Positions 1-44,194 of a stretch of DNA of 44,194 nt are shown one piece after another. Source of the DNA: a virus (Duplodnaviria > Heunggongvirae > Uroviricota > Caudoviricetes); the IMG/VR virus record IMGVR_UViG_2541047949_000001. One strand, written 5' to 3'. The notes below the pieces were generated by a model. It was given only the letters and a program-made list of their open reading frames with translations. It was not told where the DNA came from and ran no database searches. How positions within the stretch are numbered: position 1 is the stretch's first letter; each line of letters starts with the position of its first letter. A program made the translations under genes and the position numbers.

Positions 1-1143
1 CTATGCTGTTTTGATATCTACGATAATCCAGTCTTTACCACGATCATCATTGTATCGGTCGGTCATTTTTCTGGATTTATGGCCTAACAACTTTTGCGTA
101 TCCAGACCCTGTTCCCGATATAACCGTTCTGACAGAGATCGCTGCTCATGAAATGTGGGCGCAGTTCCTTGCTCCCATTTTATGCCACATTTTTCCCGGG
201 CCTTTTTAAAAGCCGTTGTCAGAGTATTCGCAGAAACCTGGTCTCCTCTGTTTGCTTGAGAGGTAGTGTGACGGTAATGGACCAGATATTTACTAACAAC
301 AGCATCCCTGCACTGAGATATAACTTCACGAAGGGTAATATTCAGAGCATCGCATTTCAGGTTAAGCGGAATAGCAAGTTTTGAACCGGTTTTTTCCTGA
401 GTAATGTGCAACATGTCGTCCCATATATCAGAGAATTTCAAATTGCAGATATCGCCTAAACGTTGTCCAGTAACAAGAGCAAGTAGCATGCCGCATTTTA
501 AATAGGGCTGCCGTCTGCTTACGCTGTCAAATATTGCCTGCCATTCGGGCAGTGACAATCTTTGGCGGTTTACTCGATTTCGTGGTTGTTTTGTTGCCTG
601 CGCTGGGTTAAATCCTGGCGGAACATGTCCTGCGTGTTGTGCTTCTTTGAAGACGTCGATCAACACCATTCTCACGACTTGCGCCATCCTGTTATGACCT
701 TCAGCCTTTACAGCATCAATTATTTCGGCAATATCAAGTGCGGTAATATCCTTGAGGTGTTGCATTCCACAATGCTCACGGAAAAGACGAATGGGTTTGC
801 CTTTTTGCCGATAGGAGTTGGGTCTTAGTTCATTATGTTGCAGCCTGTCCTCTTGGATAGAAATATATTTATCAAGCCATTCTGTCACCGTAATGTCTGA
901 GCGCCTGCCTTTCATTCTTTCCAGACGCTCATTGACGCTTAATATTTGTCTGGTACGTTGTTCAGCAATAATGGTATTTGCTTCAGTAGCAACTTGTTTT
1001 GCTTCATTCTCATCAGTTCCTAAGCTATGAAAACGACCGGATAGTGGATGTTTGTATTGCCAATATACCTTTCCGGTTCGCTTATCTAATTTGCAATATA
1101 AATTGGGTATAGAGATTTTGTGAGATCGGGGTCTAGCAGCCAT
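1..1143 (-). CDS. int: Phage integrase (tyrosine recombinase, lambda-Int family)
   Basis: 380-aa ORF; C-terminal catalytic region (TFHEQRSLSERLY...LLGHKS...YNDDRG) resembles lambda Int; window starts at its stop codon, so att lies outside the window. Confidence 0.9.
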   Translation of the reverse strand: MAARPRSHKISIPNLYCKLDKRTGKVYWQYKHPLSGRFHSLGTDENEAKQVATEANTIIAEQRTRQILSVNERLERMKGRRSDITVTEWLDKYISIQEDRLQHNELRPNSYRQKGKPIRLFREHCGMQHLKDITALDIAEIIDAVKAEGHNRMAQVVRMVLIDVFKEAQHAGHVPPGFNPAQATKQPRNRVNRQRLSLPEWQAIFDSVSRRQPYLKCGMLLALVTGQRLGDICNLKFSDIWDDMLHITQEKTGSKLAIPLNLKCDALNITLREVISQCRDAVVSKYLVHYRHTTSQANRGDQVSANTLTTAFKKAREKCGIKWEQGTAPTFHEQRSLSERLYREQGLDTQKLLGHKSRKMTDRYNDDRGKDWIIVDIKTA

Positions 1144-41000: not shown

Positions 41001-41494
41001 ACTCCGGGACGCTCAACAACGTCACGATTAATCAGAACTGTCGGATTCTGGGAAAACTGTCAGCTAACCAGATTGAAGGTGATATTGTCAAAACGGTGGG
41101 AAAAGCCTTTCCGAGAAATGGCAGTTATGCCAGCGGTACAATAACGGTCACTGTGTACGATGACCAGGCTTTTGACCGTCAGATAGTAGTCCCCCCCGTT
41201 CTGTTTCGTGGGGGTAAGCATGAAAACTTCAACAGCAACAACCAACAGTCATACTGGTATTCAACCTGTAAGCTGCAGGTACTGAAGAACGGACAGGAAA
41301 TCTTTCAGCAACCCGCGACGGATGTCAGCAGGGTATTTTCATCAGTCATTGATATGCCTGCCGGACACGGCCATGTCACCCTGACTTTCAATGTTTCTTC
41401 ATATGGTGCTAATAACTGGACGCCAACGACCAGTATCAGCGACCTTCTTGTTGTTGTGATGAAGAAATCTACAGCCGGTATCAGTATCAGTTGA
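38012..41494 (+). CDS. J: Central tail fibre / host-specificity protein J
   Basis: 1160 aa, lambda gpJ-like over most of its length. Confidence 0.95.
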
Positions 41495-41513
41495 ATTTTA
41501 TAACCCAGATACG

Positions 41514-41537
41514 GGCGCCAGAAATGGCGCCTTTTTT
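41514..41537 (+). terminator. Rho-independent terminator after J
   Basis: Hairpin GGCGCCagaaatGGCGCC followed by TTTTTT. Confidence 0.7.
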
Positions 41538-41552
41538 ATTTGTGGAGTGAAT

Positions 41553-43613
41553 ATGGCAGTACAGATTTCAGGCGTGCTGAAAGACGGTGCAGGAAAACCG
41601 ATACAGAACTGCACCATTCAGCTCAAAGCAAAACGTAACAGCACCACGGTTGTGGTGAACACGGTGGCCTCAGAAAATCCGGATGAAGCCGGACGTTACA
41701 GCATGGATGTCGAGTATGGCCAGTACAGCGTTATCCTGCTGGTTGAAGGTTTTCCGCCTTCACATGCCGGGGCCATCACCGTGTATGAGGATTCTAAGCC
41801 GGGGACATTGAATGATTTTCTGGGCGCTGCAACAGAAGATGATGTTCGTCCGGAGGCACTGTATCGTTTTGAAAAGATGGTGGAAGAGGTGGCACGCAAC
41901 GCTGAAGCCGCCTCTCAGAGCGCAGCGGCAGCAAAGAAATCAGAAACAGCAGCGGCATCGTCCAGGAATGCGGCGAAAACATCAGAGACGAATGCAGGTA
42001 ACAGCGCGAAAGCGGCAGCTTCTTCAAAAACAGCCGCACAAAACGCAGCAACAGCGGCAGAACGTTCAGAGACAAATGCCCGTGCGTCAGAAGAAGCCTC
42101 CGCAGACAGTGAAGAGGCTTCCCGCCGTAATGCAGAGTCAGCCGCTGAAAATGCCGGAGTCGCCACCACAAAAGCGCGGGAGGCCGCAGCAGACGCAACA
42201 AAGGCCGGGCAGAAAAAGGATGAGGCTCTGTCGGCAGCGACACGGGCTGAAAAGGCGGCAGACCGCGCAGAAGTCGCAGCGGAAGTGACTGCAGAGCCCT
42301 ATGCGAATATAGTGCCGCCGCTGCCTGATGTGTGGATACCGTTTAACGATTCACTGGATATGATTGCGGGTTTTTCTCCGGGCTATAAAAAAATAGCTAT
42401 TGGTGACGATGTGGTTCAGGTCGCCAGTGATAAACAGGTTAATTTCAGTCGCGCATCAACGGCAACATATATCAACAAATCTGGCGAACTGAAAACGGCG
42501 GAAATTAATGAGCCGCGATTTGAGTGTGATGGCCTGCTTATTGAGGGACAAAGAACGAACTACATGCTCAATTCGGAAAGTCCAGCCAGCTGGGGGAAGT
42601 CATCAAACATGGATGTGCCCGAAACCGGGACAGATAGTTTTGGTTTTACTTATGGAAAGTTTGTCTGCAACGATTCTCTGGTTGGGCAAACTTCGGCTAT
42701 TAATATGGCATCAATTGCTGCAACAAAGTCAGTTGATGTCTCAGGCGATAACAAGTACGTGACAACCTCATGCCGTTTTAAAACAGAACGACAGGTAAGG
42801 TTACGTATACGGTTTGATAAGTATGATGGTAGTGCAACAACTTTTCTTGGCGATGCGTACATTGATACGCAAACGCTTGAAATTAATATGACAGGTGGGG
42901 CTGCCGGCAGAATTACGGCACGAGTCAGGAAGGATAAGACCACAGGCTGGATTTTTGCAGAGGCAACGATTCAGGCAATTGATGGTGAGTTAAAAATAGG
43001 CTCTCAGATACAGTATTCTCCTGAGCGGGGTGGGGCAACAGTATCTGGTGACTATATTTATCTTGCCACCCCACAAGTAGAGAATGGGCCGTGTGTATCA
43101 TCATTTATTATTTCAGGAGGCAGCGCAACGACAAGAGCCAGTGATTTGGTTAGTATCCCCACCAGAAATAATCTTTATAAGTTACCATTTACTTTTTTAC
43201 TTGAGATTCATAAAAACTGGGATATTGCACCAAACGCCGCACCCCGCGTGTGGGATATAGCAGCAGCCAATACCGGGCAATCAGCAATTGCAGCAATCAA
43301 CAGAGGTAGTGGTAAGTTATATATGAGTCTGTCAAACCCTTCAGGCTTGTATGTTAATAGCGCAGCGACAGATGTATTTGCAGAGAAAACCACATTTGGA
43401 TGTATTGCAAAAGCTGATGGTCACTTTCATGTGGTGACAAATGGTAAAGCGGTTAATGAAGTTTATTGTGAATATAATGGTGTGACCGCTGATAAAAATA
43501 TCCGATTTGGAGGGCAGACGAATACTGGAGAACGACATCTGTTTGGCCATATTCGCAATTTCCGCATATGGCATAAAGAATTAAATGACAGGCAATTAAA
43601 AGAGGTCGTATGA
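41553..43613 (+). CDS. stf: Side tail fibre-like protein (Stf-type N-terminus, Ala/Ser-rich central region, distinct C-terminal domain)
   Basis: ATG with GGAG 5 nt upstream; N-terminus MAVQISGVLKDGAGKPIQNCTIQLKAKRNSTTVVVNTV... as lambda Stf; C-terminus ends ...HIRNFRIWHKELNDRQLKEV, reminiscent of a LamG/ConA-like fold. Confidence 0.75.
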   Translation: MAVQISGVLKDGAGKPIQNCTIQLKAKRNSTTVVVNTVASENPDEAGRYSMDVEYGQYSVILLVEGFPPSHAGAITVYEDSKPGTLNDFLGAATEDDVRPEALYRFEKMVEEVARNAEAASQSAAAAKKSETAAASSRNAAKTSETNAGNSAKAAASSKTAAQNAATAAERSETNARASEEASADSEEASRRNAESAAENAGVATTKAREAAADATKAGQKKDEALSAATRAEKAADRAEVAAEVTAEPYANIVPPLPDVWIPFNDSLDMIAGFSPGYKKIAIGDDVVQVASDKQVNFSRASTATYINKSGELKTAEINEPRFECDGLLIEGQRTNYMLNSESPASWGKSSNMDVPETGTDSFGFTYGKFVCNDSLVGQTSAINMASIAATKSVDVSGDNKYVTTSCRFKTERQVRLRIRFDKYDGSATTFLGDAYIDTQTLEINMTGGAAGRITARVRKDKTTGWIFAEATIQAIDGELKIGSQIQYSPERGGATVSGDYIYLATPQVENGPCVSSFIISGGSATTRASDLVSIPTRNNLYKLPFTFLLEIHKNWDIAPNAAPRVWDIAAANTGQSAIAAINRGSGKLYMSLSNPSGLYVNSAATDVFAEKTTFGCIAKADGHFHVVTNGKAVNEVYCEYNGVTADKNIRFGGQTNTGERHLFGHIRNFRIWHKELNDRQLKEVV

Positions 43614-43888
43614 AAGATTTAACTTTGAAGTTTCATGACAAACTGCAGTTTAAGGCCTTCCTGTCATCTCTTGACTGGGAGGAGGATGAAGACCTCCAGA
43701 ATAAACTGTTAGTCGATGAAATTGGTTTCACCTACACAGAAACAGGGGTAACAGAAGAGGGAGAACCTGTCTGTGTCCGGAATGACGGTTATTTTGTCAA
43801 CATTCGCATTCTTGATGACTTGTTTGATGTTTCTGTATTCTCTGATTATGTCGTGGAGCTGGAAACACCGCTTCGGGAATGGAGCTGA
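43610..43888 (+). CDS. Small acidic protein translationally coupled to the tail fibre gene (possible fibre chaperone)
   Basis: 92-aa ORF whose ATG overlaps the stf stop (ATGA); no family recognised. Confidence 0.4.
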   Translation: MKDLTLKFHDKLQFKAFLSSLDWEEDEDLQNKLLVDEIGFTYTETGVTEEGEPVCVRNDGYFVNIRILDDLFDVSVFSDYVVELETPLREWS

Positions 43889-43900
43889 AAGGAGGAAATA

Positions 43901-44194
43901 ATGGATATAAGCCCCTTACTTCATGCGCTTTGTGCTGTGGCTGCGCAGATACTGGTTGGTCTTTTTACCGGAAACTGGGCTTACGGAGCGATAGCCGGTT
44001 GTACGTTCTTCATTGCGCGTGAACATACCCAGGCAGAATATCGCTGGATTGAAATGTTCGGGCATGGCAAGCGAATGAATATGCCGTGGTGGGGCGGTTT
44101 TGATCCGCGAGCTTGGGATGTGGCAAGCCTGATGGATTTTGCTGTGCCGGTGGTGGCGTGTCTGCTGGTCTGGCTGTTGGTTAATCGTGGGTGA
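43901..44194 (+). CDS. Hypothetical membrane protein
   Basis: 97-aa ORF with hydrophobic segments at both ends; GGAGG upstream; window ends at its stop codon. Confidence 0.4.
   Translation: MDISPLLHALCAVAAQILVGLFTGNWAYGAIAGCTFFIAREHTQAEYRWIEMFGHGKRMNMPWWGGFDPRAWDVASLMDFAVPVVACLLVWLLVNRG

What the first reader, a model, noticed from the sequence alone, without database searches (positions are those of the whole stretch)
41553..44194. Side tail fibre with lambda-Stf-like N-terminus but a different distal domain, followed by two small coupled ORFs
The 687-aa protein begins like lambda Stf and then carries an Ala/Ser-rich low-complexity segment and a C-terminal region ending in a motif reminiscent of LamG/ConA-like lectin folds. 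This suggests a swapped receptor-binding module. The next ORF (92 aa, acidic) overlaps the stop codon and may be a fibre chaperone, followed by a 97-aa membrane protein. Together they are likely host-range determinants.
Basis: partly seen in the sequence, partly recalled or inferred. Interest (0 to 1): 0.45.

Follow-up and report, generated by a model that had tools for sequence, protein, structure and literature searches.

The report
Phage 21-type side tail fibre cassette
This is the ordinary, already deposited side-tail-fibre locus of a phage-21-like lambdoid prophage: a fibre with a lambda-type base and a swappable, probably sugar-binding head, followed by two small conserved genes whose functions are still untested.

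Summary
Window 41553-43613 encodes a 686-aa side tail fibre (not 687). 43610-43888 encodes a 92-aa acidic protein whose ATG overlaps the fibre's TGA. 43901-44194 encodes a 97-aa membrane protein.

The stretch is 100% identical to the annotated fibre locus of coliphage 21. Matches occur in 1909 of 5426 complete E. coli genomes, so it is ordinary.

Residues 1-158 are 74% identical to lambda Stf. The rest is unrelated to lambda Stf or Tfa. A confident AlphaFold model (pLDDT 93) shows two β-sandwich regions in the last ~430 aa. One lies in the region matching the 'GTA head-spike-fibre' domain family, the other in the weak LamG match. The best structural matches are non-catalytic sugar-binding modules.

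The same head sits on P2-type and other fibre bases, and on lateral fibres of T1-, T5- and rV5-like phages. Between sister phages, only residues ~271-686 are exchanged. It is a swapped receptor-binding module, probably a glycan lectin.

The 92-aa gene followed this head in every locus inspected, even in Aeromonas at 30% head identity. It is probably an assembly factor or accessory. This is unproven, and it is not Tfa-like.

The 97-aa family is not tied to this head. It follows receptor-binding genes of many kinds, including in a virulent phage. Its function is unknown.

The parts
41513..41542 (+). Intrinsic-terminator-like hairpin (GGGCGCC-AGAAAT-GGCGCC plus a T-run) between J and stf. A GGAG ribosome-binding site follows at 41544-41547.
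   Evidence: L001 5114-5133 corresponds to window 41513-41532; sequence. The phage 21 record annotates it as a terminator.
41553..43613 (+). Side tail fibre gene (stf), 686 aa.
   Evidence: 100% identical to phage 21 CPT_21_22 'side tail fiber'. phrog_1419 'tail protein', 1103 bits.
41553..41945 (+). Stf residues 1-131: lambda-Stf-type N-terminal (tail attachment) domain.
   Evidence: PF08400 E 9.8e-69. 74% identity to lambda orf-401 over residues 1-158.
41880..42317 (+). Stf residues ~110-255: Ala/Ser/Thr-rich shaft with SETNA motifs. Its length varies between relatives (fibres of 673-798 aa).
   Evidence: Length variants.
42318..42572 (+). Stf residues 256-340: highly conserved joint (PLPDVWIPFNDSL...NEPRFE..GLLIEGQRTN). 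It includes the left recombination junction of the swapped block, at about residue 270.
   Evidence: Conservation profiles. Junction. Many distant relatives match only this stretch.
42537..43139 (+). Stf residues 329-529: first jelly-roll domain, a member of the 'GTA head spike fiber' domain family.
   Evidence: NCBIfam NF048003, 55.3 bits against a cut-off of 36. phmmer hit to RcGTA Rcc01080, E 6.6e-10. β-sandwich in the AF2 model.
43188..43610 (+). Stf residues 546-686: second jelly-roll domain (LamG/ConA-like). It is the most variable part between alleles (residues 570-650) and has a conserved C-terminal strand/helix (650-686).
43610..43888 (+). orf92: 92-aa acidic soluble protein (phrog_1361), translationally coupled to stf by an ATGA overlap. 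It shares the low G+C (43%) of the distal head.
   Evidence: Linkage to the head.
43901..44194 (+). orf97: 97-aa inner-membrane protein (phrog_1443) with a conserved polar Trp-rich loop (AREHTQAEYRWI ... NMPWWGGFD). It is the last gene of the late operon.
   Evidence: Contexts.

Best explanation
The stretch is the 3' end of the late (tail) operon of a phage-21-like lambdoid prophage.

(1) The 686-aa protein is a side tail fibre built from modules. In order they are a lambda-Stf-type N-terminal domain that anchors it to the tail, an Ala/Ser-rich shaft, a conserved joint, and a distal head. The head has two β-sandwich regions of the ConA/LamG lectin type; one lies in the stretch that matches the 'GTA head-spike-fibre' domain family.

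The head most likely binds a surface glycan (O-antigen, LPS or capsule) without cleaving it. That would give reversible first-contact adsorption, while J does the irreversible step. The head is a horizontally exchanged cassette, so it sets the fibre's specificity.

(2) orf92 is the constant companion gene of this head. It is most likely an assembly factor (a dedicated chaperone) or a small structural accessory of the head.

(3) orf97 is an independent small inner-membrane protein of a family that recurrently sits directly after receptor-binding-protein genes. My best guess is that it acts on the cell envelope late in infection, for example in superinfection exclusion or in protecting progeny from re-adsorption.

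Shown: gene structures, domain family membership, predicted fold, modular exchange and gene linkage. Inferred: glycan binding, the chaperone role and the envelope role.
For: Identity and architecture:
- 100% identical to phage 21 and ev017.
- PF08400 plus 74% identity to the lambda Stf N-half.
- NF048003 above its cut-off, and a hit to RcGTA head spike fibre Rcc01080, E 6.6e-10.
- That RcGTA fibre mediates attachment to capsular polysaccharide (PMC7296036, read; PMC10218006).

Fold:
- AF2 model with pLDDT 93.4 and pTM 0.90.
- No GH16-type E-x-D-x-x-E motif.

Exchange:
- Same head on P2-type and PF03406-type bases.
- Same head in T1-, T5-, Dhillon-, Queuo- and rV5-like phages.
- The block at residues ~271-686 is swapped relative to Lambda_2E9 with 98-100% identical flanks.
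- Head and orf92 have 43% G+C, against 52-59% in the rest of stf and 56% in J.
- The homologous IrisVonRoten Gp22 was described as a proximal lateral fibre with a C-terminal 'galectin-like' possible receptor-binding domain. That phage infects O16-expressing K-12 (PMC11990801).

orf92 linkage:
- 160 phage records hold a homologue, against 228 with the head.
- It lies directly downstream in every locus inspected. This includes Aeromonas, where the head is 30% identical and the orf92 homologue scores BLASTP E 8e-10, and rV5-like EmilHeitz.

orf97 independence:
-.
- No promoter-like site in front of it.
Against: - The AF2 model is a monomer. The oligomeric state of the head is unknown.
- orf92 shows no similarity to any known chaperone.
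- orf92 does not co-vary with the head. 93%-identical orf92 pairs with heads that are 43% or 100% identical.
- In many cassettes orf92 lies between the head-bearing fibre and a second fibre gene, which fits an adaptor role as well.
- Nothing supports any specific activity for orf97. Its presence in a virulent Ackermannviridae genome argues against a purely lysogenic-conversion role.
Confidence: 0.7

Rival explanations
1. The distal head is an enzyme (a glycan depolymerase or lyase with a ConA-like fold) rather than a passive lectin. The fibre would then drill through O-antigen or capsule.
Confidence: 0.12
2. orf92 is not a chaperone. It is a structural adaptor that docks a second, distal fibre onto the head-bearing proximal fibre (a branched fibre). 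In this prophage the second fibre gene has been lost and orf92 is a leftover.
For: Many cassettes have the order head-fibre, orf92, second fibre.
- Lambdoid variants carry a 227-346-aa Peptidase_S74 fibre.
- IrisVonRoten has Gp22-Gp23-Gp24.
- tunus and a phage-plasmid show the same order.
- The N-terminal peptide of the second fibre is conserved between lambdoid and T5-like phages (MVTKTVIP.DIT.LK).
- RefSeq names IrisVonRoten Gp23 'tail fiber protein'.
- Branched lateral fibres are established in T5-like phages (PMC4728585).
Against: orf92 is retained intact, with a strong ribosome-binding site and ATGA coupling, in cassettes without a second fibre: phage 21 and relatives, the Dhillonvirus 'rolling', and a P2-like prophage. 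It is highly conserved there. The predicted IrisVonRoten complex attaches Gp24 to the proximal fibre itself.
Confidence: 0.25
3. orf97 has nothing to do with adsorption. It is a hitch-hiking moron, or a lysis or membrane-stress gene, that accumulates at recombination-prone 3' ends of receptor-binding genes.
For: It does not co-vary with the head. Stand-alone chromosomal and mobile-element copies exist. Its G+C (53%) differs from the head and orf92 (43%). 3' ends of fibre genes are classic moron sites (general knowledge).
Against: The same family lies directly after the last receptor-binding gene in 10 of 12 independent contexts. These span siphoviruses, myoviruses, a podovirus and a virulent phage, often with overlapping stop and start codons. 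Conservation is extreme, 57-60% identity between gamma- and beta-proteobacteria. Both argue for a selected, receptor-binding-linked function.
Confidence: 0.3
4. The fibre is a dispensable or decaying relic, like the frameshifted stf of laboratory lambda, and does not contribute to infection.
For: Viable relatives carry insertion sequences that truncate the 3' end of stf: Lambda_4C10, 4A7, 1W and 3W. So the fibre is not essential on laboratory hosts.
Against: The ORF is intact and identical in the viable phage 21. The exact protein stands for a cluster of 2232 sequences. Allelic diversification confined to the head is the signature of selection on receptor binding.
Confidence: 0.05

Closest known systems
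Lambda side tail fibre Stf with its chaperone Tfa
   Same: Same position after J. Same N-terminal domain (PF08400; 74% identity over 158 aa) and the same kind of Ala/Ser-rich SETNA shaft. A small gene is translationally coupled downstream.
   Different: The distal half is unrelated to lambda orf-314. orf92 is unrelated to Tfa/Caudo_TAP. There is no lom between J and stf.
Phage 21 CPT_21_22/23/24 (OL657228) and Jouyvirus relatives (ev017, ev207, mEp460, PhiR63_2)
   Same: 100% (phage 21, ev017) to 96-99% nucleotide identity over the whole stretch. Annotated as side tail fiber, hypothetical protein and putative membrane protein.
   Different: Nothing of substance. In those records sitABCD follows on the other strand, whereas the window stops at the orf97 stop codon.
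RcGTA head spike fibre GhsB (Rcc01080) of Rhodobacter capsulatus
   Same: Shares the NF048003 domain (phmmer E 6.6e-10). It is a flexible fibre that mediates attachment to capsular polysaccharide.
   Different: It is attached to capsid vertices through an N-terminal Leu-Gly repeat, not to the tail, and is present as a single subunit per spike. Only residues 2-10 are resolved in the PDB entries, so there is no solved structure of the shared domain. It is 325 aa, and the match covers only fragment residues 48-294; whether it has a counterpart of the C-terminal LamG-like region was not tested.
Lateral tail fibre cassette of T5-like IrisVonRoten (Gp22-Gp23-Gp24) and of T1-like, Dhillonvirus and rV5-like coliphages (BASEL collection)
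   Same: Gp22 carries the same head (52% identity) and Gp23 is an orf92 homologue with the same 4-nt overlap. The head was described as a 'galectin-like' possible extra receptor-binding domain on a proximal fibre.
   Different: These are virulent phages with different N-terminal anchors. Most carry a second distal fibre gene after orf92. No orf97 is annotated in the four loci inspected.
Branched LtfA/LtfB fibres of T5-like DT57C and DT571/2
   Same: The logic of a proximal fibre that carries its own receptor-binding domain and also holds a second fibre. The lambdoid variant cassettes with an S74 fibre after orf92 look analogous.
   Different: LtfA and LtfB end in Peptidase_S74 intramolecular chaperones, not in a ConA-like head. 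No second fibre is present in this window.
Small envelope proteins encoded next to receptor-binding genes: Cor (phi80, N15), Llp (T5), HK97 gp15, T4 Imm (from general knowledge)
   Same: orf97 is a small envelope protein encoded directly after the receptor-binding gene, which is the position and size class of these exclusion factors.
   Different: There is no sequence relationship, and PADLOC, Pfam and PDB searches are negative. Cor and Llp are outer-membrane lipoproteins specific for FhuA. orf97 is a 2-3-helix inner-membrane protein found with receptor-binding proteins of any specificity.

Membership tests
Lambda-type side tail fibre (Stf) | N-terminal 'prophage tail fibre N-terminal' domain (PF08400), encoded after J | tested here: met
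   PF08400 E 9.8e-69, 230 bits against a cut-off of 26.6. 74% identity to lambda orf-401 residues 1-158. The gene starts 59 nt after J.
Lambda-type side tail fibre (Stf) | Distal half homologous to lambda orf-314 (T4 gp37-like tip) and dependent on a Tfa (Caudo_TAP) chaperone encoded downstream | tested here: not met
   No alignment to orf-314; best E 1.2. orf92 against Tfa gives no alignment. No PF02413 hit.
GTA head spike fibre domain family (NCBIfam NF048003) | Score above the curated cut-off of the domain model | tested here: met
   55.3 bits against a cut-off of 36, residues 329-529, covering 1-181 of 182 model positions. Direct phmmer hit to Rcc01080, E 6.6e-10. PGAP names the E. coli copies 'phage head spike fiber domain-containing protein'.
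GTA head spike fibre domain family (NCBIfam NF048003) | Binds capsular or extracellular polysaccharide | not testable with these tools
   Known only for RcGTA. No data exist for the coliphage head.
Concanavalin A-like lectin / LamG superfamily (Pfam PF13385 Laminin_G_3) | Sequence score above Pfam's gathering threshold | tested here: not met
   23.9 bits against 27.6, residues 560-681. Some homologues carry the precomputed PF13385 hit (P0073, P0087).
Concanavalin A-like lectin / LamG superfamily (Pfam PF13385 Laminin_G_3) | Curved β-sandwich jelly-roll fold | tested here: met
Tail fibre assembly chaperones (Tfa/Caudo_TAP, PF02413), considered for orf92 | Homology to PF02413 or to lambda Tfa | tested here: not met
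   No Pfam hit. No BLASTP alignment. In a P2-like locus a separate Caudo_TAP remnant lies after the cassette.
Tail fibre assembly chaperones (functional class), considered for orf92 | Required for folding or assembly of the fibre encoded just upstream | not testable with these tools
   Only linkage is shown: translational coupling and constant co-occurrence with the head.
Cor/Llp-type exclusion lipoproteins, considered for orf97 | Sec/SPII signal peptide with a basic n-region and a lipobox Cys at about position 15-25 | tested here: inconclusive
   A lipobox-like [LIVAT][LIVA][GA]C at 31-34 with invariant Cys34 is present in all aligned homologues. However, there is no basic n-region, the Cys is unusually far in, and invariant polar residues (D2, H8, Q16) lie inside the would-be signal peptide. 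The phage 21 record notes a SignalP signal of 29 aa and 2 TMDs.
Known anti-phage defence or exclusion proteins (PADLOC-DB), considered for orf92 and orf97 | Match to any PADLOC model | tested here: not met
   No hits at E up to 1.

The most novel reading that the evidence does not exclude
The 97-aa protein belongs to an uncharacterised, very strongly conserved family of small inner-membrane proteins (phrog_1443). Phages of all three tail morphotypes, temperate and virulent, place it directly after their last receptor-binding-protein gene, whatever that protein's fold or specificity. The family could be a new, general accessory function of adsorption. One example would be a late-expressed envelope factor that masks or depletes surface glycan receptors, or blocks DNA entry, so that progeny and lysogens are protected. 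The family has a conserved target or enzymatic loop (AREHTQAEYRWI...NMPWWGGFD). In parallel, orf92 (phrog_1361/18574) would be a new family of dedicated assembly factors for ConA-like 'head-spike-fibre' heads.
Probability: 0.3. Interest if true: 0.55.

Novelty: already known. Interest (0 to 1): 0.27.

Why it matters
The fibre itself adds little. The locus is identical to the one deposited for phage 21, it matches a third of complete E. coli genomes, and the lectin-like head has already been noted in BASEL phages.

It is nevertheless a clean natural example of head swapping with defined junctions, at about residue 270 and at the stf stop / orf92 start. That is directly useful for engineering lambda-based particles with new host ranges. 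Any such design should carry orf92 along.

The open questions are the two small genes. orf92 is the invariable partner of a very common fibre head. orf97 is a conserved membrane protein that tracks receptor-binding genes across unrelated phages. Neither has a known function, and both are cheap to test.

Tried and rejected
- First AF2 run with 18 close homologues failed (pLDDT 45). It was repeated with 61 sequences including 50%-cluster representatives.
- The search for related loci with the 61-sequence alignment had no conserved stretch. The genome scan with the 18-sequence alignment gave only 6 loci.
- PDB profile searches for orf92 and orf97 returned only noise, with E of 0.6 or more.
- Pfam scans of all aligned members of both small families returned only sub-threshold noise.
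- NCBIfam and PADLOC had nothing for the small ORFs.
- The solved RcGTA entries cannot serve as a structural template. Only residues 2-10 of Rcc01080 are resolved.
- The depolymerase reading was considered and down-weighted: there is no GH16 motif and the lectin modules rank first.
- The lipoprotein (Cor/Llp-like) reading of orf97 was considered and left inconclusive.
- A lysogenic-conversion-only reading of orf97 was weakened by its presence in a virulent Ackermannviridae genome and by the lack of its own promoter.
- Literature searches for phage 21 Stf and for Jouyvirus found nothing on these genes.
- Minus-strand ORFs inside stf (up to 149 aa) lie in the Ala-rich repeat. They have no support and were ignored.
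- One context look-up (P0111) was not on record.
Full report
**What is there**

The window is a lambdoid prophage laid out from int (1-1143, minus strand) to the tail genes. J ends at 41494. A terminator-like hairpin follows at 41513-41542, then GGAG, then the ATG of the fibre gene at 41553.

The fibre ORF ends with TGA at 43611-43613 and encodes 686 aa.

The ATG of a 92-aa ORF overlaps that stop (ATGA, with AAAGAGG upstream). Twelve bases after its stop, behind AAGGAGG, a 97-aa ORF starts. Its stop codon is the last base of the window.

orf92 is acidic, with pI 4.1. orf97 has two strongly hydrophobic segments (3-24 and 74-97), a weaker Gly/Ala-rich one (25-39) and a polar loop at 40-73.

**It is a deposited, annotated locus**

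Window 41400-44194 is 100% identical to Escherichia phage 21 (OL657228) and to ev017. It is 96-99.9% identical to other Jouyvirus phages. Phage 21 annotates the three genes as side tail fiber, hypothetical protein, and putative membrane protein with 2 TMDs. sitABCD follows on the opposite strand.

Many IMG/VR prophage predictions end exactly at the orf97 stop, as this window does. The window is therefore probably a gene-boundary-trimmed prophage call.

Matches to 42300-44194 occur in 1909 of 5426 complete E. coli genomes. In 453 of them the match covers at least 80% of the query, including the type strain. PGAP names the fibre 'phage head spike fiber domain-containing protein'.

**Architecture of the fibre**

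- Residues 1-131 are the PF08400 prophage tail-fibre N-terminal domain, E 1e-68.
- Residues 1-158 are 74% identical to the N-half of lambda Stf (orf-401).
- The Ala/Ser/Thr-rich shaft (54% A+S+T, SETNA motifs) weakly matches the lambda shaft.
- Nothing aligns to the lambda distal half (orf-314).
- NCBIfam places residues 329-529 in the 'GTA head spike fiber' domain family, at 55 bits against a cut-off of 36.
- The only PDB sequence relative is the Rhodobacter capsulatus GTA head spike fibre Rcc01080, E 6.6e-10.
- Pfam Laminin_G_3 matches 560-681 just below its threshold.

A first AlphaFold run with close homologues failed (pLDDT 45). A run with 61 sequences, including 50%-cluster representatives, gave a confident model with pLDDT 93.4 and pTM 0.90. 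DSSP on that model shows two long runs of β-strands, at fragment residues 104-261 and 297-424, after a β-rich joint.

- Pa193 baseplate gp46;
- a cyanophage tailspike;

The solved RcGTA entries resolve only residues 2-10 of Rcc01080, so no experimental structure of this domain exists. Functionally, that fibre mediates binding to the capsular polysaccharide.

**The head is an exchangeable module**

The same ~430-residue head is fused to several bases:
- 88% identity, on a P2-type fibre base (PF12571);
- 73% identity, on a PF03406-type base in a myovirus-like phage-plasmid;
- on lambda-type bases of different shaft length.

tblastn finds it in 228 phage records. These include lateral fibres of T1-like, Dhillonvirus, Queuovirinae, T5-like and rV5-like virulent coliphages.

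Against the sister phage Lambda_2E9, nucleotide identity is 97-100% up to Stf residue ~270. It falls to 28-73% through residue ~660 and returns to 88-100% from the start of orf92 onward.

Among 47 distinct alleles next to near-identical orf97 genes, the joint (residues 260-340) and the last ~35 residues are conserved. The second domain (570-650) is the most variable. The head and orf92 have 43% G+C, against 52-59% for the rest of stf and 56% for J.

This is the expected signature of a horizontally swapped receptor-binding module. The homologous IrisVonRoten Gp22 (52% identity) has been described as a proximal lateral fibre with a protruding 'galectin-like' domain that may be an extra receptor-binding domain. 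That phage can infect K-12 with restored O16 antigen (PMC11990801).

I infer, but cannot show, that the head binds a surface glycan for reversible primary adsorption.

**orf92**

The family (phrog_1361, with the Aeromonas branch phrog_18574) has no Pfam, NCBIfam, PADLOC or PDB relative. It has no similarity to lambda Tfa.

Its linkage to the head is very tight. It lay directly downstream in every locus inspected:
- lambdoid phages;
- a P2-like prophage, where a Caudo_TAP remnant sits after the cassette;
- a phage-plasmid;
- T5-like IrisVonRoten;
- T1-like tunus;
- the Dhillonvirus 'rolling';
- rV5-like EmilHeitz;
- Aeromonas prophages, where the head is only 30% identical and the orf92 homologue scores BLASTP E 8e-10.

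160 phage records have a detectable homologue. It shares the head's low G+C.

It does not co-vary with the variable part of the head. A 93%-identical orf92 serves heads that are 43% and 100% identical. If it binds the fibre, it binds conserved parts.

In many cassettes a second fibre gene follows orf92. In the lambdoid variants this is a 227-346-aa Peptidase_S74 fibre, whose N-terminal peptide (M.T.TVIP.DI..LK) also begins IrisVonRoten Gp24. The tunus and phage-plasmid genes are unannotated or carry other domains, and their N-termini were not examined. An adaptor role in a branched fibre is therefore a live rival.

Retention of orf92 where no second fibre exists (this window, 'rolling', the P2-like prophage) favours an assembly or accessory role for the head itself.

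**orf97**

The family (phrog_1443; 577 clusters at 90% identity) reaches Salmonella, Leclercia, Citrobacter, Aeromonas, Halomonas and Comamonas. Identity to the query is still 57-60% in Aeromonas, Citrobacter and Comamonas, and the motifs AREHTQAEYRWI and MPWWGGFD are nearly invariant.

It stays at least 95% identical while the head upstream varies from 35 to 100%. No copy is annotated in the four virulent-phage cassettes inspected that carry the head. It is not part of the head module.

Yet in 10 of 12 independent contexts it is the gene directly after the last receptor-binding gene, whatever the type:

| Receptor-binding gene upstream | Locus or phage |
|---|---|
| P2-like fibres | L006, L099-101 |
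| HP1-like S74 fibres | Leclercia, A. salmonicida |
| P22-like tailspike | JEP4 |
| Pectate-lyase side spike after GpJ | Citrobacter |
| Giant GpJ | Comamonas |
| Tail-fibre assembly gene | phiHAP-1 |
| Stf-orf92 pair | phage-plasmid PhiR41_1 |
| Between two tailspikes of a virulent Ackermannviridae genome | L097 |

The exceptions are a chromosomal copy in Aeromonas rivipollensis and a copy next to toxin-antitoxin genes.

There is no promoter-like site in front of it, so it reads as the last late gene. A lipobox-like motif with invariant Cys34 is conserved. The N-terminus does not look like a signal peptide, though.

I can offer only a low-confidence guess. It may be an envelope-acting accessory of adsorption, such as exclusion or protection of progeny, by analogy of position and size with Cor, Llp, HK97 gp15 and T4 Imm. 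No homology supports this.

**Verdict**

The chaperone idea for orf92 is plausible but untested. Grouping orf97 with the fibre as a host-range determinant is not supported.

The locus is ordinary and already deposited. The only leads worth a bench test are the functions of the two small conserved gene families.

Noticed in passing
L054 5286-5990; L056 4918-5958; L065 5307-5990 (IMG/VR relatives): Variant lambdoid cassettes carry an extra gene between orf92 and orf97. It encodes a 227-346-aa second fibre with a Peptidase_S74 intramolecular-chaperone domain. Its conserved N-terminal peptide (MATSTVIPDDIKTLK / MVTKTVIPGDITTLK) also begins Gp24 of T5-like IrisVonRoten. This suggests branched side fibres in lambdoid prophages.
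   Followed up: partly
L096 5185-5415; L095 5218-5496 (Aeromonas prophages): Between the ConA-like fibre and the orf92 homologue lies a 76-92-aa gene (phrog_6098). It has a phospholipase-A2-like CCxxHDxDYG motif and a C-terminal hydrophobic helix, and a weak hit to a 'tail assembly chaperone' PHROG (E 8e-5).
   Followed up: partly
L003 6079-8748 (Lambda_4C10; also 4A7, 1W, 3W, D2); H216/H217 in E. coli genomes: Insertion sequences (three 'mobile element protein' genes in the phage loci; IS3 family in the two E. coli genomes) interrupt the last ~45 codons of stf in several viable phages and chromosomes. The fibre is therefore dispensable on the isolation hosts. orf92 and orf97 remain intact downstream.
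   Followed up: partly
window 1 and 44194: The window begins at the stop codon of int (minus strand) and ends at the stop codon of orf97. About 30 of the 80 IMG/VR contigs retrieved end at the same point. In complete phage genomes sitABCD (a manganese/iron transporter moron) follows on the opposite strand, 92 nt downstream.
   Followed up: partly
L006 8612-8836 (P2-like prophage): A 74-aa Caudo_TAP fragment lies just after the head-orf92-orf97 cassette. It looks like the scar of a replaced H-G (fibre-chaperone) pair.
   Followed up: no
window 42318-43885 against its flanks: G+C drops to 43% in the distal head and orf92. The stf N-terminus and shaft are at 52-59%, J at 56% and orf97 at 53%. This is consistent with acquisition of head and orf92 from lower-G+C (virulent-phage-like) DNA.
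   Followed up: yes
window 43991-44002 (orf97 residues 31-34): A lipobox-like [LIVAT][LIVA][GA]C with invariant Cys34 is conserved in all 20 aligned homologues. The N-terminus lacks a basic n-region and contains invariant polar residues.
   Followed up: partly
L099 and L101 5391-5957; L100 5390-5632 (E. coli P2-like prophages): There the orf97 homologue is followed by a resolvase/invertase gene, as at Mu/P1-type invertible fibre segments. It is preceded by a 75-aa ORF in place of orf92.
   Followed up: no
L109 3501-3662 (virulent phage HC6; also ST1UNAM, ZCEC08, PBM-2, PBM-3): An unannotated partial homologue of the conserved orf97 loop (43% identity over residues 41-94) lies right after an 859-aa hypothetical, probably fibre, gene.
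   Followed up: no
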